Of a stretch of 64,000 nucleotides of DNA, positions 6,145 to 53,282 are shown piece by piece. A model generated the notes under the pieces. The model was not told the DNA's origin. It did not search any database and was given only the letters and a program-made list of their open reading frames with translations. The first letter of the stretch is position 1. Each line of letters opens with the position of its first letter. A program made the position numbers and the translations under genes. The stretch is from an uncultured Candidatus Saccharibacteria bacterium. GTDB taxonomy: Bacteria; Patescibacteriota; Saccharimonadia; Saccharimonadales; Saccharimonadaceae. The stretch lies in the NCBI GenBank assembly GCA_947367565.1, contig CANBEI010000001.1, forward strand, positions 4,976-68,975, written 5' to 3'.

Positions 6145-6411
6145 ATGAAAAAGTGGGTTGAGAGAAAAATTGAGACTAAAAATCTTCTCGACAATCCAGG
6201 GCATATGGCTTTTGTCCGTAGCGGGATTGTATATCTTGATGCTAGCGCAGTGTGGTATGTTGGTCGCTATGCTCAGCTATGGTCGCGTACGGCGAATTCA
6301 CCGAATAACGCCTATGACTTATTTATCTACACCGATAATGTCGATCCATCAGCTGGCGGTGGTCGCTACGTCGGTCGCTCCCTCCGCTGCCTCTACCCAG
6401 GTAGTGCCTAA
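6145..6411 (+). CDS. Small protein consisting of a FISUMP-type (Fibrobacter major paralogous domain) C-terminal tail module, copy S1
   Basis: 88-aa ORF: MKKWVERKIETKNLLDNPGH then MAFVRSG...LWSRTANSPNNAY...RYVGRSLRCLYPGSA. Internal ATG at 6205 starts exactly at the module. Confidence 0.5.
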   Translation: MKKWVERKIETKNLLDNPGHMAFVRSGIVYLDASAVWYVGRYAQLWSRTANSPNNAYDLFIYTDNVDPSAGGGRYVGRSLRCLYPGSA

Positions 6412-6580
6412 TGGAGGAAAAGGAAAATGAGAAATAGCTACTTTCAGGACCCGCTTGACCCGTCCCGTCGTTACGGGCGGGTCTGCGCTTCGCTCGCTTC
6501 CCCGTTGGTCGCGAAGATTCCTGAGAGTAGCTATTTCTCATCTCCATTCTTCCATTGGCTTCAGGCACGGCAGCGGAGGG
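6405..6580. repeat. Long imperfect palindrome with conserved GC-rich apical hairpin (structured element, copy A)
   Basis: Arms ATGAGAAATAGCTACTTTCAGGA (6427-6449) and TCCTGAGAGTAGCTATTTCTCAT (6519-6541) pair. Outer arms extend into the 3' ends of both convergent genes. Apical hairpin GACCCG-T-CCCGT-CGTT-ACGGG-CGGGTC lies at 6457-6483. Confidence 0.8.
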
Positions 6581-6755
6581 GGAAACCATAGTAACGACCG
6601 ACACTATTTGATGGGCCGACGCCGGTGGAATATACGCCTAAGTAACGTGCGTTAGTGGACGAGCTAGCCGTACGCGACCAATGATAGCTCCTTTCTCCAA
6701 AGTTGCTAATGTAGCCACTATCCAGATTAGTATATCCACTACGGACAAAAGCCAA
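6561..6755 (-). pseudogene. FISUMP-tail module copy S2, probably lacking a proper start
   Basis: LAFVRSGYTNLDSGYISNFGERSYHWSRTASSSTNARYLGVYSTGVGPSNSVGRYYGFPLRCRA. Upstream in frame is TAG-YYPSGATTIVQLP, where paralogue S5 has MNYYIATSGTSGATTIVQLP. Only a TTG is available as start. Confidence 0.45.
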
Positions 6756-6826: not shown

Positions 6827-6929
6827 TTTTGCGACGTTAAAATTTTTAAAAAAATTTTAACGTCCGAAGCTATTCTTAACAGAGGTAGTTAGCAAAAGTT
6901 AGGTTAGAAAAATTGGATTTTTGTAAGCT
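6827..6929. repeat. 103-nt non-coding repeat R, copy 1, containing a perfect 32-nt AT-rich palindrome
   Basis: Differs at 2 of 103 positions from 41691-41793 by my manual alignment. Palindrome GACGTTAAAATTTTTAAAAAAATTTTAACGTC lies at 6833-6864. Confidence 0.9.
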
Positions 6930-16060: not shown

Positions 16061-16834
16061 CTACCAATAGAGATAGCCATCTTTTATTGCCAAGAGATGC
16101 TCAAGCTGTTCCTCTTGAATAGTGTCGAGCGGATAGAATTTCTGAATAGTTATTCCATCGCCCTCCTCTATCATTCGTATAGCAGGCAATATCTTGTTAT
16201 TGATATTAACTGATATTAGCGTCTCATTTTCCGTAGGTGTAGTGATTGACAGGTGAAGATTTGGCTCTTTAGGTTTTTGGACCCAAGCATACCCCAACTC
16301 GCCATTAATCGGCATCTCTATATCCAGTCGACTATCTGGCCACATCGGTGTTTTAAGGCGCATAATCTCAAAGCAATCACCCGTACCGATTTTGTGAAAT
16401 ACGAAGCTTATAAAACCAGCATAAACAGAAACTCGATATAAATACCATTCCATATAAGGATTGTTTTCGAGGATATCCCGATACCCTAATATGAACTCTC
16501 TCGGGGTCACACATTCATGTCCACCTGCATCGTTTTTCACATATTCCAGATTGGCTAATATTTGATCATATAGACTAATGATGCTATGGCACTGAAGAAT
16601 TTCGCTAAAATCTTCCGCATCGTTACCGTACTCAAACATATAGAAAGCCGGGTCTCTACCAGGATAGTCTACTCCATCGATTGTAATGTGTGTTTTCAAC
16701 CCTAAGTTATGTCGAGATACGACAGCAAGTAAAGATTGGTTTATATCTCCTTTGACTAAGATTGAATCCGACTGCACGATAGAGATGTCAGCTGGCTCAG
16801 TCAAAGCGTCCGTATTAACCGGATAATAGATCAT
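16061..16834 (-). CDS. Hypothetical protein, no recognisable motif; visibly more AT-rich than its neighbours
   Basis: 257-aa ORF with GGAGGG upstream. Own consensus promoter and own terminator. Confidence 0.6.
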   Translation of the reverse strand: MIYYPVNTDALTEPADISIVQSDSILVKGDINQSLLAVVSRHNLGLKTHITIDGVDYPGRDPAFYMFEYGNDAEDFSEILQCHSIISLYDQILANLEYVKNDAGGHECVTPREFILGYRDILENNPYMEWYLYRVSVYAGFISFVFHKIGTGDCFEIMRLKTPMWPDSRLDIEMPINGELGYAWVQKPKEPNLHLSITTPTENETLISVNINNKILPAIRMIEEGDGITIQKFYPLDTIQEEQLEHLLAIKDGYLYW

Positions 16835-17064: not shown

Positions 17065-18411
17065 ATGGATTTTCGAGTTGAAAAAGTACTGCCGAATGGC
17101 CTGGGGCGGGTCGGAACGATACGGACGGCGCACGGTGAGATTAAAACGCCGGCGTTCATGGCGGTGGGGACGCAGGGGCATGTGCGGTTTTTGTCGGCGG
17201 AAGATTTGCGCGGCATTGGGGCGCAGGCGATGTTGTCGAATGGGTTTCATTTAAGACGGAGGAGTCATGAAATTGCTGAAGCTGGCGGGCTGGCCGAATG
17301 GAAGCCTACCGAATCATTCTCTTCGGAACACGACGTCGACTCGTCCCGTCGTCACGGGCGAGTCGCGTCTTCGTCCTCGGTCGTAACCTCCGGAGATTCC
17401 CGAAAAGAAAATTCGGTAGGCCTCCGTCCGGATAACCTGTCAGCCGAGCCTTGGCGGGGTCCGACGCTGACCGATTCGGGCGGGTTTCAGGTGATGTCGC
17501 TAGGATCAGGATTAGGCAAGGTAGTATCGATGGAGAAGGAGCGGGGCGTAGTGAATACAGCGCATAAGGAGCGGCTGGCGCAGGTACGCGAGGAAGGCGT
17601 GAGCTTTATTGATCCATTTGACCATGAGCCGGAATTCATCGGGCCGGAGGAGTCGATGCAGATTCAATGTCGGATCGGGGCGGATATTCATATGGCGTTT
17701 GATGAGCTGACGTCACTGGCGGATACTTATGAATATAATATTGAGGCAATGGAGCGGACAGAACGCTGGGCTCTCCGGAGCTTAAGAGAACATATTAAAC
17801 ATCGTGATGACCTGGGTTATCGGCAGAATTTGTACGGCGTCTTGCAGGGTGGGCGCTGGGAAGATCTCAGGCGACAGACGGCGCGAAACTTGGCAAAGAT
17901 GGAAGTCGACGGGATAGGGTTTGATGGCTTCGGGCTAGGTGGAGCGTTTCTGAAAGAAGATTTAGGGGAGATTTTGCGCTGGTGTAATGAGGAGCTACCG
18001 ATGGATAAACCGCGACATTTACTTGGATTGTCGCATCCGGATGATATTTTGATTGGGGCGGAGATGGGAGCGGATACGTTCGACTGCGTGGCACCGATGC
18101 GCGAGGCACGGCATGGAAAAATCTACACCCGCGACGGAAATTATAATTTGCGCAAAATGGCAGATTCGGGAGAAGTGTTAGAACCGGGCTGTGACTGCGC
18201 GACGTGTCGAGCGGGGTGGACGAGAGGGAGCCTTAGGGCGCTATGGCGGTCGGGCGATACGGAGAAGAAACAAAAATACTATAATCTAGCTTCAACGCAT
18301 AATTTGAGATTTATCGTGCGACTGACCGAAGAAGTGCGACAGGCGATGTTGGATGACAACTTCGCAGAATACAAGTGCGAGTTTTTGGCGCGATATTACG
18401 CTGGACGATGA
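17065..18411 (+). CDS. tgt: Queuine/preQ1 tRNA-ribosyltransferase carrying a ~48-50 codon in-frame insertion
   Basis: MDFRVEKVL...GEIKTPAFMAVGT, LTDSGGFQV and DELTS motifs. Start moved to ATG 17065, 9 nt after TATAAT. Confidence 0.9.
   Translation: MDFRVEKVLPNGLGRVGTIRTAHGEIKTPAFMAVGTQGHVRFLSAEDLRGIGAQAMLSNGFHLRRRSHEIAEAGGLAEWKPTESFSSEHDVDSSRRHGRVASSSSVVTSGDSRKENSVGLRPDNLSAEPWRGPTLTDSGGFQVMSLGSGLGKVVSMEKERGVVNTAHKERLAQVREEGVSFIDPFDHEPEFIGPEESMQIQCRIGADIHMAFDELTSLADTYEYNIEAMERTERWALRSLREHIKHRDDLGYRQNLYGVLQGGRWEDLRRQTARNLAKMEVDGIGFDGFGLGGAFLKEDLGEILRWCNEELPMDKPRHLLGLSHPDDILIGAEMGADTFDCVAPMREARHGKIYTRDGNYNLRKMADSGEVLEPGCDCATCRAGWTRGSLRALWRSGDTEKKQKYYNLASTHNLRFIVRLTEEVRQAMLDDNFAEYKCEFLARYYAGR
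17300..17425. repeat. Structured GC-rich palindromic element, copy B, in frame inside tgt
   Basis: Outer arms GGAAGCCTACCGAAT / ATTCGGTAGGCCTCC. Apical hairpin GACTCG-T-CCCGT-CGTC-ACGGG-CGAGTC at 17338-17364, homologous to 6457-6483. 126 nt, equal to 42 codons. Confidence 0.8.
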
Positions 18412-35451: not shown

Positions 35452-36405
35452 CTATTCCTTGATAAAGTCAACGATGTCCGACCAAACTTGCTGTTTATCC
35501 TTTTCATTCAAAATCTCATGACGCATGCCGGGATAAAGTTTGCTCTTCACGTCACGATAACCGCGGTCGCGCATAAAATCAACTGCCTTCTGAAAATCTT
35601 TTTGACTGATAATGCAGGGGTCGTTCGCGCCGGCGATGAAGAAAATTGGCAAATCGGGGCGGTCAACTTTCCAGCCGGATTTACTATAGGCGGTTTTCAT
35701 AAGGCTAAATAGATTCTCAAAACCGTTGAGCGTAAAGACGAAGCCGTCGCGCGCGTCAGCGTCATAGGCCGCCACAACTTCCGGGTCACTGACGATCCAG
35801 GAGTTTTCGCTAGGGTAGTGCTTAGCAAGACTGACAGTTTCGCCGTTCTGACGAGCGAGCTTGGCAGACCTTTCGTTATATCCGCTAAAGGACAAGTTTT
35901 GAACAAGTGGGCTGCGATAGTGTTCGCCCTTGAGAGCTTTTAATAGTTTGACCACGAGACGCCCAGCGCCGGCTCCGAAGCGTTTGCTTGGTGAGCCGCA
36001 GACGATGAGCCGATCGATATCGGCGTCGTATTTTTTCGTATAGCAACGCACAATTAGTGAGCCCATACTATGACCAAAAAGTGTCAGAGGCAGTCCGGGA
36101 AAACGCTCACGTAGATAAAGTGTAAGTTGATGTACGTCGTCAACAATTCCCTGCGCGCCCTCCTGATAAAAATAACCATAATCTGTTTCGGACTTAACGC
36201 TGGCACCATGGCCACGATGGTCATGAATCAAAACAATAAAACCTTGCGCCGCACAGTAATCCATAAAATCATGATAGCGTTCGCGATGTTCCGCCATACC
36301 GTGTACTAACTGTAAAATCCCGATTGGGTGTTCTGGAATGCGCAGGCTGACGCCCAATTCGAGACCATCGTGCTGACTTCTAATTGTAAATTCTTCAACT
36401 TTCAT
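35452..36405 (-). CDS. Alpha/beta hydrolase (lysophospholipase / monoacylglycerol lipase-like)
   Basis: HGMAEHRERY and nucleophile elbow GHSMGS. Confidence 0.8.
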   Translation of the reverse strand: MKVEEFTIRSQHDGLELGVSLRIPEHPIGILQLVHGMAEHRERYHDFMDYCAAQGFIVLIHDHRGHGASVKSETDYGYFYQEGAQGIVDDVHQLTLYLRERFPGLPLTLFGHSMGSLIVRCYTKKYDADIDRLIVCGSPSKRFGAGAGRLVVKLLKALKGEHYRSPLVQNLSFSGYNERSAKLARQNGETVSLAKHYPSENSWIVSDPEVVAAYDADARDGFVFTLNGFENLFSLMKTAYSKSGWKVDRPDLPIFFIAGANDPCIISQKDFQKAVDFMRDRGYRDVKSKLYPGMRHEILNEKDKQQVWSDIVDFIKE

Positions 36406-40898: not shown

Positions 40899-41159
40899 GT
40901 GCGGACTGGCTTCTTTTGCTCTAGCGCTAGGTTATGTTTGGCTTTTGTCCGTAGCGGGCATACTAATCTTACCGGCGGTGGTGTCGCCAACGTCGGTAGC
41001 AACGGCTACGACTGGTCGCGTACGGCAAATTCGTCTACCAACGCCTATCGTCTCAACTTCAACCCTACGGATCTCAATATGAATGCGACAAATCGCTACT
41101 GGGGTTTCCCCCTCCGCTGGGTTTGGCCACGGTTTGGTGCCGATCTTTCGGAAAACTGA
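40899..41159 (+). pseudogene. FISUMP-tail module copy S3, degenerate (terminal Cys lost, disrupted 5' region)
   Basis: LAFVRSGHTNLTGGGVANVGSNGYDWSRTANSSTNAYRLNFNPTDLNMNATNRYWGFPLRW (TGC to TGG). An MKKW start homologous to that of S1 lies at 40737 in another frame and terminates after 15 codons. Confidence 0.45.
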
Positions 41160-41168
41160 GTTCAGCAT

Positions 41169-41375
41169 ATGGCTTTTGTCCGTAGCGGGTATGTGAATAT
41201 TACAATCGGTCAAGCTGGTATTATTGGTGGCAATGTCTACGTTCGTTCACGTACTGCTAGCAAAGACACGAACGCTTACATCCTTGCTTCTGCGATTAGT
41301 ATGGTTTATCCATCATATAGCGATGTTCGTTTTTATGGTTTCCCCCTCCGCTGCCTCTACCCAGGTAGTGCCTAA
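41169..41375 (+). CDS. FISUMP-tail module copy S4 (68 aa)
   Basis: MAFVRSGYVNITIGQAGIIGGNVYVRSRTASKDTNAYILASAISMVYPSYSDVRFYGFPLRCLYPGSA. The last 46 nt (41344-41389) are identical to 6380-6425. Confidence 0.5.
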   Translation: MAFVRSGYVNITIGQAGIIGGNVYVRSRTASKDTNAYILASAISMVYPSYSDVRFYGFPLRCLYPGSA

Positions 41376-41659
41376 TGGAGGAAAAGGAAGTATCTGGAGA
41401 TGCTACCGGTACGGCAGCGGAGGGGGAATCCAAAATAAGGAACATCGCTACCGGATGGATTAAGACCAGTGGAGTTAATATAGAGAATATGGGTCTTAGT
41501 AGACGAGCTTGATGTACGAGACCACCAATAACCATTACTTCCGATATACCCGGCTTGATTGTAACTAAGGAATATGCCACCACTACGGACAAAAGCCAAT
41601 GGCAACTGTACTATGGTGGTGGCGCCGGAGGTGCCGGAAGTAGCAATATAATAATTCAT
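41372..41659 (-). CDS. FISUMP-tail module copy S5 (95 aa)
   Basis: MNYYIATSGTSGATTIVQLPLAFVRSGGIFLSYNQAGYIGSNGYWWSRTSSSSTKTHILYINSTGLNPSGSDVPYFGFPLRC... TATAAT lies 3 nt upstream of the ATG. Convergent with S4. Confidence 0.5.
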   Translation of the reverse strand: MNYYIATSGTSGATTIVQLPLAFVRSGGIFLSYNQAGYIGSNGYWWSRTSSSSTKTHILYINSTGLNPSGSDVPYFGFPLRCRTGSISRYFLFLH

Positions 41660-41690: not shown

Positions 41691-41793
41691 TTTTGCGACG
41701 TTAAAATTTTTAGAAAAATTTTAACCTCCGAAGCTATTCTTAACAGAGGTAGTTAGCAAAAGTTAGGTTAGAAAAATTGGATTTTTGTAAGCT
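41691..41793. repeat. 103-nt non-coding repeat R, copy 2
   Basis: 2 mismatches to 6827-6929. One mismatch breaks the palindrome stem (AACGTC to AACCTC). Confidence 0.9.
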
Positions 41794-51863: not shown

Positions 51864-53282
51864 TTATTCTTCAACCAGTGTAAATTCTTTCCCAGCAATC
51901 GAGATAATTGATTCCGGTTCGGCGCCTTGCGAAGTAAGCTCAGCGCGAATACCGAGTTTTTTCATAATATCGCGTAGACGATTAACCGAAGCGTAATTGT
52001 TCAAATCTGTGCGGTGAGCAAACTTTTCAATCTTTGGGCCAGTGACGACAAATTTCACCTCGTCGCCATCTTCTAGCTTTTCGACTTTCCAAGCGTTACT
52101 GGGCTGGGCAGAGGAAAGAGTAATAACAGGCAAAGTTACGACATGCCCAGCTTCTGACTCGGTCGGGGGGGCGCTCTCCTCATCTAAAGATTCGGACCCG
52201 CGCCCGCCCGAGGAGTCGGAGCTCCATGACCTCGCAGAAGCTGAGTATGTCACTGCCCCGTCATCGTCCATCTCAAATGAACCCGGAGCCGTAGACTGGC
52301 TCTTAGCTTCGCGCTTAATTCGCACTAGCTCACGCAATACTTCCGTGATTCCCCGCTTCGCGGCGGAAGAAATCGCATAGACCTTCGCATCGGGATTCAC
52401 CTTTAGGATACTGGCAATCTGCATATCAATAATATCTTGGTCGACACCCTCGCATTTCGTCAACGCGACAATCTCTGGACGGTCACGCAAGTCAGAGTAA
52501 CGCTCCAGCTCTTTGCGAATCACCTGATAAGCCTCACCGGCGTCATCATTATAAACGTCAACGAGATGCAACAATGCCGCCGTGCGATCGACATGGCGAA
52601 GAAAATCATGACCCAGACCCTTGCCGTCAGCAGCGCCTTCAATTAACCCCGGAATATCAGCAATCAAAATATCTTGGTCATCAACCGTCGCGACGCCGAG
52701 CTGCGGCGTCAACGTCGTAAAGGGATAATCGGCGATTTCTGGGCGAGCGTTACTAACGACGCTAAGGAAAGTTGACTTACCAGCATTTGGCAACCCGACT
52801 AGCCCAACGTCGGCAATCAGTTTCAGCTCGAGTGCCGCCTCAAACTCATCACCCGGCTCGCCAACTTCGGCAATCATCGGCGTCTGACGCACGCTTGACT
52901 TAAAATGCGCGTTACCAAAGCCACCGTCGCCACCCTTCGCAATCACCGCTTCCTGCCCGTCAACCGCCAAATCCGCCAGCACGACGCCGTCCTTGCGCAC
53001 AACCGTACCAACTGGTACCTCGACAATCAAATCCTTTCCACCTCGGCCAGCGCTACGTTGACCAGAGCCATTTTTACCGTTCTCAGCTTTCAACTCGGGA
53101 TTGAATCGAAAATCAATCAAGGTATTCGTGTCTTTGTCGGCGCGAAAGATAATACTACCGCCACGACCACCGTCGCCACCGTCCGGACCGCCTTTCGGGA
53201 TATAAATTTCGTGGCGAAACGATACTGCGCCGTCGCCGCCCTTGCCGGCTTGGAGTTTGGCTTTTGCCGTATCGACGAACAT
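51864..53282 (-). CDS. obg: GTPase Obg/CgtA with C-terminal OCT domain and an extra Ser/Gly/Asp-rich linker segment
   Basis: MFVDTAKAKLQAGKGGDGAVSFR, Gly-rich Obg fold, GLPNAGKST, DIPGLIEGA and TKCE. Confidence 0.9.
   Translation of the reverse strand: MFVDTAKAKLQAGKGGDGAVSFRHEIYIPKGGPDGGDGGRGGSIIFRADKDTNTLIDFRFNPELKAENGKNGSGQRSAGRGGKDLIVEVPVGTVVRKDGVVLADLAVDGQEAVIAKGGDGGFGNAHFKSSVRQTPMIAEVGEPGDEFEAALELKLIADVGLVGLPNAGKSTFLSVVSNARPEIADYPFTTLTPQLGVATVDDQDILIADIPGLIEGAADGKGLGHDFLRHVDRTAALLHLVDVYNDDAGEAYQVIRKELERYSDLRDRPEIVALTKCEGVDQDIIDMQIASILKVNPDAKVYAISSAAKRGITEVLRELVRIKREAKSQSTAPGSFEMDDDGAVTYSASARSWSSDSSGGRGSESLDEESAPPTESEAGHVVTLPVITLSSAQPSNAWKVEKLEDGDEVKFVVTGPKIEKFAHRTDLNNYASVNRLRDIMKKLGIRAELTSQGAEPESIISIAGKEFTLVEE
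52148..52243. repeat. GC-rich imperfect palindrome inside the obg linker (96 nt, 32 codons), possible diverged relative of the structured element
   Basis: Perfect outer arms CAGCTTCTG (52148-52156) / CAGAAGCTG (52235-52243), inner GACTC/GAGTC. TTCGGACCCGCGCCCGCCCG resembles TTCAGGACCCGCTTGACCCGTCCCG of copy A. Confidence 0.4.

What the first reader, a model, noticed from the sequence alone, without database searches (positions are those of the whole stretch)
17300..17425. Structured GC-rich palindromic element inserted in frame inside tgt (copy B), with compensatory base changes relative to an intergenic copy
The Tgt ORF reads GGLAEW-[KPTESFSSEHDVDSSRRHGRVASSSSVVTSGDSRKENSVGLRPDNLSAEP]-WRGPTLTDSGGFQV. 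Tgt homologues, as I recall them, go almost directly from GGLHxFMxW to xPIxTDSGGFQ, so about 48-50 codons are extra. The extra DNA at 17300-17425 (126 nt, 42 codons) folds as a hairpin with three parts. The outer arms are GGAAGCCTACCGAAT / ATTCGGTAGGCCTCC. The inner stem is TCGGA / TCCCGA. The apical hairpin is GACTCG-T-CCCGT-CGTC-ACGGG-CGAGTC (17338-17364). The apical hairpin and a downstream GATTCC box recur at 6457-6483 and 6517-6522 as GACCCG-T-CCCGT-CGTT-ACGGG-CGGGTC. The C-to-T change in the 5' arm is matched by G-to-A in the 3' arm. The inner stem changes in the same coordinated way, from TCAGGA/TCCTGA to TCGGA/TCCCGA. The outer stems are unrelated in sequence, yet both pair. Divergence that preserves pairing argues for selection on structure (RNA or cruciform DNA) rather than shared ancestry alone. 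A stop-free, in-frame structured insertion in a conserved enzyme recalls Rickettsia palindromic elements. It could also be an intervening sequence removed at the RNA level.
Basis: partly seen in the sequence, partly recalled or inferred. Interest (0 to 1): 0.85.

Follow-up and report, generated by a model that had tools for sequence, protein, structure and literature searches.

The report
Palindromic repeat inserted inside tgt
A small GC-rich DNA palindrome sits in frame inside the tgt gene of a Saccharibacteria genome; it belongs to an apparently undescribed repeat family that lodges in surface loops of many housekeeping enzymes and is translated rather than removed.

Summary
Copy B (17300-17425, in tgt) and copy A (about 6410-6556, intergenic) share a ~93-nt core that folds into a closing stem plus two hairpins, with outer arms unrelated in sequence.

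A covariance model built from 14 copies finds 32 hits in about 370 kb of Candidatus Saccharibacteria DNA (some orthologous or duplicate loci), and only these two in the window. About two thirds lie inside genes: tgt, tsaD, ileS, alaS, obg, tatD, mnmA and others. They occur in both orientations and several reading frames, and the host frame is always open. So the element is translated, not spliced. AlphaFold models the Tgt insert as a disordered loop.

The conserved part is the centre; the arms are locus-specific. Arms grow by copying the opposite flank: one tsaD allele carries a perfect 30-nt inverted copy of native codons. The centre can flip: a relative's tgt differs by an exact 126-nt inversion at 17300-17425. 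Cores are lost by deletion between short direct repeats.

Best reading: a selfish palindromic DNA repeat resembling Rickettsia palindromic elements, shaped by replication template switching. How the core moves is unknown. No published description was found. The RNA-removal idea is not supported.

The parts
17065..18411 (+). tgt ORF (queuine tRNA-ribosyltransferase), intact, 448 aa
   Evidence: ORF list; PDB TGT matches at E ~1e-61; homologues carry PF01702.
17302..17451 (+). 50 codons (Tgt residues 80-129) lying between the two stretches that align to Z. mobilis TGT
   Evidence: AlphaFold gives pLDDT < 50 for residues 84-117 with no secondary structure, between confident helix 61-72 and strand 134-137.
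17281..17444 (.). Whole palindrome of copy B. The arms are 17281-17314 and 17411-17444 (34 nt, 76% complementary). The left arm includes the native GGLAEW codons.
   Evidence: As DNA it folds at -44.3 (+) and -44.1 (-) kcal/mol, z about -5.4 on both strands.
17300..17425 (.). 126-nt (42-codon) segment found exactly inverted at the same site in a relative's tgt (L004 8610-8735)
   Evidence: Both regions are 201 nt. Identity is 96/201 direct and 145/201 after inverting this segment.
17317..17409 (+). Conserved core of copy B (B-type)
   Evidence: Covariance model R1 scores 102.8 bits (E 2e-23) on + and 13.6 bits on -.
17322..17328 (+). 5' half of closing stem P1 (TTCGGAA; family consensus TTCGGGA)
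17332..17369 (+).
   Evidence: 9 of 16 pairs show changes on both sides across copies.
17369..17395 (+). Hairpin 2 (CTTCG...CGGAG with inner GGT-CGTA-ACC)
   Evidence: The inner pairs covary (GGT/ACC, GCT/AGC, GGC/GCC).
17397..17404 (+). 3' half of closing stem P1 (TTCCCGAA), including the GATTCC box
6438..6530 (+). Conserved core of copy A (A-type)
   Evidence: R1 scores 76.8 bits, E 6e-17.
6410..6556 (.). Whole palindrome of copy A (arms 6410-6441 and 6527-6556). It fills most of the gap between two convergent small ORFs.
6145..6411 (+). Small ORF (88 aa, ...GRSLRCLYPGSA*) ending just left of copy A
   Evidence: no Pfam match.
6561..6755 (-). Convergent paralogous small ORF (64 aa, ...GFPLRCRA*) ending just right of copy A
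41362..41389 (+). Paralogous site without the element. It is identical to 6398-6425, the native left flank of copy A.
   Evidence: 28/28 identity; sequence.
52140..52251 (-). Third palindromic in-frame insert, in obg, with a different or decayed core. It lies at the same obg site that carries an A-type core in relative L019.
   Evidence: Not detected by R1.

Best explanation
Copy B is one member of a family of small non-autonomous palindromic DNA repeats in Candidatus Saccharibacteria. The family resembles Rickettsia palindromic elements.

The unit shared between loci is a GC-rich core of about 80-110 nt. It consists of a closing stem (TTCGGGA/TCCCGAA) and two hairpins. Cores arrive at new loci by an unidentified DNA-level process. 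They survive in intergenic gaps and, when the added length is a multiple of three, in permissive surface loops of housekeeping enzymes. Four of the six reading frames of each core are stop-free, so an in-frame insert is read through as a disordered Ser/Arg-rich peptide loop.

The long outer arms are not part of the shared unit. The very stable core hairpin promotes template switching during replication. This copies one flank as a reverse complement onto the other side, which makes, extends and homogenises the arms. It can also invert the centre. Slippage between short direct repeats deletes cores and leaves remnants. Together these processes make one loop per protein hypervariable in length.

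Shown by sequence: the family and its structure; intragenic frame-preserving copies in both orientations; inversion; inverted duplication of native codons; deletion derivatives.

Inferred: template switching as the process behind the arms; translation of the insert; selfishness with no host function; the mode of core transfer.
For: Family and structure:
- The core pattern scan hit 12 Saccharibacteria loci among 18 genome hits and 12 metagenome loci.
- Model R1 gives 23 + 9 hits in about 370 kb and is strongly strand-specific.
- 86.6% of pair cells are paired, against 76% in shuffles and 39-53% in slid controls. 20 of 35 pairs show double changes.

Core-only homology:
- Cores that are 90-98% identical sit in unrelated arms. 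L015 and L017 are on the same contig; window B is 94% identical to the L017 tsaD copy.
- Arms occur nowhere else in the held DNA.
- At orthologous loci, arms and core diverge together (alaS in L008 and L022).

Intragenic and translated:
- Copies lie in Tgt, TsaD, IleRS, AlaRS, Obg, TatD, MnmA, a class-V aminotransferase and a tRNA U5-methyltransferase. All host frames are open, with the element sense or antisense to the gene.
- Four of six frames per core are open.
- The same site in Tgt and TsaD carries cores in 6-7 type/orientation/frame combinations.
- The insert is modelled as a low-confidence loop.

Arm copying:
- L043 has a perfect 30-nt inverted duplicate (2034-2063) of native tsaD codons (1842-1871). 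It is absent from the empty allele L027.
- Weaker versions of the same pattern occur in window B (76%), window A and L017.

Inversion: window tgt and L004 tgt differ by an exact 126-nt inversion.

Deletion:
- L025 and L026 have the same arms, with and without the core.
- L041 and L040 differ by a 198-nt segment bounded by the direct repeat GGSCTGTCG, and L040 keeps half a hairpin.

Published mechanism: template switching creates reverse-complement copies, homogenises and expands inverted-repeat arms, and inverts spacers (PMC8794818, PMC8604942, PMC13100816).
Against: - No transposase, target-site duplication or donor copy was identified, so mobility of the core is inferred only from near-identical cores at unrelated loci.
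- The inner arm segments next to the core are absent from empty alleles (GKVSDSSPASS versus GDGLV in TsaD). They match nothing else held, so their origin is unexplained.
- One site per protein is hit repeatedly by different core types. Permissiveness alone may not explain this; it may mean existing palindromes are targeted, or that cores are exchanged between copies.
- At the tgt site, the window core (B1) is only 76% identical to the L004 core (B2). Each is 94-95% identical to copies at other loci in other genomes. This needs core replacement or independent colonisation.
- Translation of the insert is inferred from frame conservation, not observed.
- Cores conserved across species could reflect a function rather than recent spread.
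Confidence: 0.7

Rival explanations
1. The core is a new kind of mobile DNA with a dedicated enzyme. It moves as a Y-shaped single-stranded hairpin, or it targets the tips of existing hairpins or cruciforms. Integration itself primes snap-back synthesis that builds the arms. On this view the conserved centre with host-derived arms is the signature of the transposition mechanism, not of later mutation.
For: - Architecture native-left | inner arm | core | inner arm' | reverse complement of native-left, seen at several independent loci.
- The same loop is colonised by different core families and orientations.
- Core-less perfect hairpins occur at the same place.
- The closing stem TTCGGGA/TCCCGAA is sequence-conserved and could be a recognition site.
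- Cores are strand-asymmetric.
Against: - No candidate enzyme was found, and no systematic search was possible.
- No hits in viral contigs.
- The core-less hairpins look like deletion products: two alternative products, with core-bearing sister lineages.
- Ordinary template switching already accounts for arm copying and inversion.
Confidence: 0.17
2. The element is a functional structured RNA: a cis-regulator, an sRNA or ribozyme, or an intervening sequence that is cleaved out of the mRNA and the ends rejoined.
For: - Very stable fold, with compensatory changes.
- The core scores far better on one strand.
- In animals, base-paired transposon ends trigger excision from mRNA ('SOS splicing', PMC12779559).
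Against: - Copies lie in both orientations relative to their host genes, so half would present the complement in the mRNA.
- All intragenic copies are in frame and stop-free, which an excised element would not need.
- G.T and A.C mismatches are about equal (32 versus 24).
- Both DNA strands fold equally well.
- No Rfam match at E <= 10.
Confidence: 0.05
3. The insert is a protein-level feature: a functional or ancestral loop of Saccharibacteria Tgt. The DNA palindrome is incidental.
For: - The clade has extra residues at this site even in its commonest short form (WxPERADGxxxxPW).
- The frame is always preserved.
Against: - The same DNA core is read in at least six different orientation/frame combinations, giving unrelated peptides.
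- It also occurs in intergenic DNA (copy A).
- Close relatives (84-98% identical Tgt) differ in having it or not.
- It is predicted to be disordered.
Confidence: 0.03
4. There is no mobility. Each hairpin arose locally by template switching, and the similarity of the cores is convergent or due to chance.
For: Template switching can create perfect stems in a single event (PMC8794818).
Against: 93-nt cores are 90-98% identical at unrelated loci, with E-values down to 1e-24. Asymmetric two-hairpin centres cannot arise repeatedly by local copying.
Confidence: 0.02

Closest known systems
Rickettsia palindromic elements (RPEs)
   Same: Palindromic repeats of about 100-150 bp in a small host-associated genome. 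Many copies are inserted in frame in unrelated housekeeping genes and read through as extra peptide segments compatible with the protein fold. No own transposase is known (PMC10969869).
   Different: RPE families are conserved along their whole length, and each encodes a conserved peptide in one frame. Here only the centre is conserved, the arms are locus-specific, the core is read in many frames and both orientations, and the centre flips. The phylum is different and the core is GC-rich. Sequence homology to RPEs was not tested.
Mitochondrial palindromic GC clusters and double-hairpin elements (yeast GC42, Allomyces DHEs)
   Same: Short GC-rich hairpin-forming repeats in an AT-richer compact genome. 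They are non-autonomous, turn over rapidly, merge and shuffle with one another, occur occasionally inside genes, and have an unsettled mobilisation mechanism (PMC4478555). A two-hairpin fold is described for DHEs (from my own knowledge of Paquin et al. 2000).
   Different: Those are organellar and smaller (about 30-80 nt). A putative target-site duplication is reported for them and none was found here. Long locus-specific arms are not a described feature.
Bacterial MITEs (Correia/NEMIS, ERIC, RUP, BOX)
   Same: Small non-coding repeats that fold as hairpins, dispersed in intergenic and sometimes intragenic positions.
   Different: MITEs are defined by conserved terminal inverted repeats, target-site duplications and a related IS element. 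Here the termini vary and the middle is conserved, so the layout is the reverse of a MITE.
Template-switch (quasipalindrome) mutation
   Same: A process, not an element. It makes reverse-complement copies of adjacent sequence, perfects and expands inverted-repeat arms, and inverts spacers (PMC8794818, PMC8604942, PMC7202029). This matches the 30-nt inverted copy, the near-perfect arms and the 126-nt flip.
   Different: It explains the arms but not how identical cores reach unrelated loci.

Membership tests
Rickettsia palindromic elements (as a kind: in-frame palindromic repeats) | Dispersed multi-copy palindromic repeat of about 100-150 bp | tested here: met
   Two copies in the window. 32 model hits in about 370 kb of related DNA, some of them orthologous or duplicate loci, and up to 4 in 8 kb. 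Whole palindromes span 126-200 nt.
Rickettsia palindromic elements (as a kind: in-frame palindromic repeats) | Inserted in frame in unrelated protein-coding genes without breaking them | tested here: met
   At least 11 host gene families, all frames open. Translation itself was not observed.
Rickettsia palindromic elements (as a kind: in-frame palindromic repeats) | Each family conserved over its whole length and encoding a conserved peptide | tested here: not met
   Only the core is conserved and the arms are unrelated. Cores are read in 6-7 orientation/frame combinations.
Rickettsia palindromic elements (as a kind: in-frame palindromic repeats) | Sequence homology to RPE-1 to RPE-10; Rickettsiales host | not tested
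   No RPE sequences were at hand. The host is Candidatus Saccharibacteria according to the record titles.
MITE | Conserved terminal inverted repeats | tested here: not met
   The outer arms differ at every non-orthologous locus.
MITE | Target-site duplication | tested here: inconclusive
   L041/L040 differ by a 198-nt segment flanked by GGSCTGTCG. Because L040 keeps half a hairpin, this reads better as a deletion. No clean duplication is seen for L025/L026 or for copy A against its paralogue.
MITE | Related autonomous IS with matching ends | not tested
   Only short loci were held and no whole genomes. Only 20 ORFs were scanned against Pfam (10 from the window; 10 from related loci), and none matched a transposase.
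Self-splicing or enzyme-excised intervening RNA (group I/II intron, bulge-helix-bulge intron) | Recognisable ribozyme or splice-motif RNA family | tested here: not met
   No Rfam match at gathering score or at E <= 10.
Self-splicing or enzyme-excised intervening RNA (group I/II intron, bulge-helix-bulge intron) | Fixed orientation relative to host transcript; no need to preserve the reading frame | tested here: not met
   Both orientations occur and the frame is always preserved.
Intein or conserved protein insertion domain | Conserved peptide or splicing motifs | tested here: not met
   Peptides differ with the frame used, and the segment is predicted to be disordered.
REP/BIME/REPIN | 20-40-nt palindrome with a conserved 5' tetranucleotide and an associated RAYT transposase | not tested
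   Size and two-hairpin architecture differ. No RAYT search was possible.

The most novel reading that the evidence does not exclude
The core is a previously unrecognised class of mobile DNA laid out as the reverse of a MITE. Its conserved Y-shaped hairpin centre integrates at hairpin tips or replication gaps and builds its own arms from host flanking sequence by snap-back synthesis, driven by an unidentified enzyme in Saccharibacteria. In doing so it turns single surface loops of essential enzymes into recurrent hot spots for insertion, inversion and deletion.
Probability: 0.2. Interest if true: 0.8.

Novelty: new variant of a known kind. Interest (0 to 1): 0.62.

Why it matters
Saccharibacteria have very small, gene-dense genomes. 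A repeat family that lives inside essential translation-related enzymes shows how selfish DNA can persist where little non-coding space is left. It also supplies raw material for new protein loops.

The data give an unusually clean natural record of template-switch mutagenesis. A perfect 30-nt inverted copy of coding sequence, an exact 126-nt flip, and paired deletion products all appear between close relatives.

There are practical consequences. These inserts inflate and fragment domain hits. They create length-variable hot spots in marker genes such as tgt, tsaD, obg and the aminoacyl-tRNA synthetases. As long near-perfect palindromes they could also cause assembly or alignment errors in metagenome-assembled genomes; this last point is inference.

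Tried and rejected
- Rfam at gathering score over the whole window, and at E <= 10 around both copies: only one tRNA, nothing at the elements.
- Viral contig scan with the core pattern: 0 hits.
- Hypothesis that the left arm is native host sequence and only core plus right arm were inserted. Rejected for the inner arms, because empty TsaD alleles read GDGLV where the filled allele has GKVSDSSPASS. Kept for the outer arm parts.
- Search for the arms elsewhere, as donor flanks or local templates: only the palindromic partner and orthologous loci were found. Only about 1% of each genome was available, so this is weak.
- G.U versus A.C asymmetry as a sign of RNA-level selection: 32 versus 24, no signal.
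- Another inverted repeat at 36213-36372 is chance (z = +0.37).
- The mid-length Tgt form (L042, WSPIDQLNQNQRPDG) is not a clear palindrome.
- The obg insert in the window is not recognised by the model. Its relation to the family is unresolved.
- A shared target motif such as AATGG near palindrome edges was considered by eye. I judged it too weak to claim.
- The six non-Saccharibacteria hits of the genome scan were not examined. Several are from high-GC Actinobacteria, so they are presumed to be chance.
- Literature searches for any description in Saccharibacteria or the wider candidate phyla radiation (CPR) found nothing relevant.
Full report
**1. The observation**

The sequence is as described. 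The tgt ORF (17065-18411, +) is intact.

Against solved Z. mobilis TGT, the alignment covers query residues 11-77 and 130-446. About 48 codons are left where the enzyme has four residues.

The 27-nt apical hairpin motif occurs twice in the window, at 6457-6483 and 17338-17364. None is expected by chance.

Both regions fold into the same shape: a long outer stem, a short closing stem and two hairpins.
- Copy B: -71.5 kcal/mol, z = -7.0.
- Copy A: -83.6 kcal/mol, z = -10.4.

As DNA, the two strands of copy B fold equally well (-44.3 and -44.1 kcal/mol). The outer arms pair in both copies and are unrelated in sequence.

**2. It is a family**

Record titles of the matching genomes place the organism in Candidatus Saccharibacteria. 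The Tgt is 98% identical to a protein from a public sequencing run (SRR27010021, Logan assembly).

A pattern for the core hit 18 genome loci, 12 of them Saccharibacteria MAGs with one or two hits each. It also hit 12 metagenome loci and no viral contig.

From 14 copies I built an alignment and a covariance model (93 positions, 35 pairs).
- 86.6% of pair cells form standard pairs. Column shuffles give 76% and slid partners give 39-53%.
- 20 of 35 pairs show changes on both sides.
- The model finds 23 hits in 247 kb of related loci and 9 more in the metagenome and tsaD loci. Some hits are orthologous or duplicate loci.
- One 8-kb locus (L022) holds four copies.
- In the window, with filters off, only copies A and B are found. 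B scores 102.8 bits forward and 13.6 bits reverse, so the core is asymmetric.
- At least two main core types (A and B) occur, plus more distant ones. These include C-type with apical hairpin CCTGC-CGTC-GCAGG, and others seen in L041 and L043.

**3. Where copies sit**

About two thirds of copies lie inside long ORFs that Pfam confirms as real genes. These are IleRS, AlaRS, MnmA, a class-V aminotransferase, TatD, a tRNA U5-methyltransferase and TsaD, as well as Tgt and Obg.

The core lies sense to the gene in some copies: window tgt, L003, L017, L018, L019 and L025. It lies antisense in others: L004, L005, L008, all four copies in L022, and L038/L039. In no case is the host frame interrupted.

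Each core type is stop-free in four of its six frames.

Among the 120 closest Tgt cluster representatives, the segment between GGLAEW and TDSGG varies from 15 to 114 residues. The minimal form is GGLALATGWQGPT and the commonest form is WxPERADGxxxxPW. Thirteen representatives carry recognisable A-, B- or C-core peptides in six type/orientation/frame combinations, always at this one site.

TsaD behaves the same way at HIYANWL[...]PEFPLLALVVSGGHT. The empty form there is GDGLV. 19 of 120 representatives carry known cores in seven combinations, and several other recurring insert peptides appear as well.

This rules out an ancestral or functional peptide. It also argues strongly against removal from the mRNA, since an excised element would not need to keep the frame or avoid stops.

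AlphaFold models the Tgt insert as an unstructured, low-confidence loop. pLDDT is below 50 for residues 84-117. The loop lies between a confident helix (61-72) and the strand carrying TDSGG (134-137).

**4. Only the centre is shared between loci**

Cores at unrelated loci can be nearly identical.
- L015 and L017, on the same contig, are 98% identical.
- Window B is 94% identical to the L017 tsaD copy and 90% to the L018 ileS copy.

Their arms have nothing in common. The arms match nothing else in the DNA held, apart from their own partner and orthologous loci.

At orthologous loci (alaS in L008 and L022), arms and core have diverged to a similar degree. The arms are therefore not simply fast-evolving.

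A subset of B-type copies shares roughly 10 more nucleotides on each side (CCATTATCC...GCACAATG). The edge of the shared unit is therefore fuzzy.

This layout, with a conserved middle and variable ends, is the reverse of a MITE. It also differs from RPEs.

**5. How the arms arise**

In tsaD of L043, a perfect 30-nt reverse-complement copy (2034-2063) of native, conserved codons (THHLKSHIYAN, 1842-1871) lies on the far side of the insert. The empty allele L027 has the native stretch but not the copy.

The same arrangement is seen in diverged form at other loci:
- L017, where the right arm contains the reverse complement of the LKSHIYANW codons.
- Window copy B, where 17411-17444 is 76% complementary to 17281-17314, which includes the GGLAEW codons.
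- Window copy A, whose native left flank 6398-6425 is also present at the element-free paralogous site 41362-41389. An approximate reverse complement of that flank follows the element.

So the arms are at least partly built by copying the opposite flank.

The published mechanism that does this is replication template switching. It creates reverse-complement copies, perfects and expands inverted-repeat arms, and inverts the spacer between them (PMC8794818, PMC8604942, PMC13100816, PMC7202029). Attributing the arms to this mechanism is my inference.

**6. Inversion and deletion**

The tgt regions of the window and of L004 are both 201 nt long. They match at 96 positions as they stand and at 145 positions once a 126-nt segment is inverted.

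L025 and L026 (tsaD) have identical flanks and outer arms. L025 carries a B-type core. L026 has a perfect hairpin with 26-bp arms, a 6-nt loop and no core.

Two close relatives, P0166 and P0168, differ only by the orientation of that loop. Core-bearing sister lineages exist. The core-less forms are therefore best read as deletion products.

L040 differs from L041 by a 198-nt segment bounded by the direct repeat GGSCTGTCG. L040 retains half a hairpin, so this too is a deletion.

**7. RNA or DNA**

No Rfam family matches.

Among non-Watson-Crick cells, G.T (32) is not in excess over A.C (24). Both orientations occur relative to transcription. Both DNA strands fold equally well.

Nothing points to an RNA-level role.

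**8. What remains unexplained**

- How cores reach new loci. No transposase, target-site duplication or donor was identified, and only about 1% of each relative's genome was available.
- The origin of the inner arm segments, which are absent from empty alleles.
- Why one loop per protein is hit again and again by different core types. Permissiveness is one answer. Preferential insertion into, or core exchange between, existing palindromes is another.
- At the tgt site itself, the window core is only 76% identical to the L004 core, although the arms are homologous. Each core is 94-95% identical to copies at other loci in other genomes. This implies core replacement or independent colonisation.

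**9. Comparison and verdict**

The closest known kind is the Rickettsia palindromic elements: in-frame, read-through palindromic repeats in housekeeping genes of a reduced genome (PMC10969869). Mitochondrial GC clusters and double-hairpin elements are a second analogue (PMC4478555).

This family shares how those elements behave but not their defining layout. I found no description of it in Saccharibacteria or the wider candidate phyla radiation (CPR).

I rate it a new variant of a known kind. It is of moderate to high interest for mobile-element and CPR genomics. The RNA-removal idea is not supported, and the mobility mechanism is left open.

Noticed in passing
window 52140-52251 (-), inside obg (51864-53282): A third palindromic in-frame insert: 17-nt arms at 88% complementarity, with a 78-nt GC-rich centre. 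Its core is not recognised by the A/B model. It sits at the same obg linker position that carries an A-type core in relative L019.
   Followed up: partly
window 6145-6755 and 40899-41659: Clusters of small paralogous ORFs (64-95 aa; MAFVRSG...WSRTA...GFPLRC) arranged convergently. None passes a Pfam threshold. They recall the Fibrobacter-type paralogous domain (from memory, untested). Copy A sits between one convergent pair; the paralogous pair at 41169-41659 has no element.
   Followed up: partly
window 6830-6929 and 41694-41793: A near-identical 100-nt direct repeat beginning with the palindrome GACGTTAAAATTTTT/AAAAATTTTAACGTC. On the minus strand it lies upstream of the small paralogous ORFs, so it may be a duplicated promoter or leader.
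   Followed up: no
window 17482-17571 (Tgt residues 140-169): A second insertion relative to Z. mobilis TGT (GLGKVVSMEKERGVVNTAHKER), also modelled with low confidence. It is conserved in sequence across the whole clade and is not palindromic, so it is an ordinary lineage-specific loop.
   Followed up: partly
window 16061-16834 (-): A 257-aa ORF with no Pfam match lies between the Exo_endo_phos gene and tgt. In relatives L003, L004 and L005 those two genes are directly adjacent, so this ORF is a window-specific insertion.
   Followed up: no
L026 3396-3465 (tsaD of a relative): A perfect hairpin with 26-bp arms and a 6-nt loop, inside a coding region and with no core. A close relative (P0168) has the loop in the opposite orientation.
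   Followed up: yes
TsaD homologues P0121-P0240, loop after HIYANWL: Several further recurring insert peptides mark additional core families at the same site. Examples are SEISASADALLGRGMSNTASSATPASLNS, LSQSKVNLSKSNPSDEGRDFEQVQP and FVQHGCASPHLKNRSRHSLSSQATVLHKN.
   Followed up: partly
Tgt homologues P0001-P0120, right edge of the variable loop: The motif (L)RPDG(L)xAxPW recurs at the right boundary in most variants. In the window it is encoded by DNA partly complementary to the GGLAEW codons. The common short form WxPERADGxxxxPW may itself be the relic of an old palindromic insertion. This is speculative.
   Followed up: no
Host genes of intragenic copies (loci L008, L017, L018, L022, L038, L039 and the window): Most host genes act on tRNA: Tgt, TsaD, MnmA, the tRNA U5-methyltransferase, IleRS and AlaRS. 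One copy also sits next to rnpA. This may only reflect the gene content of a reduced genome.
   Followed up: no
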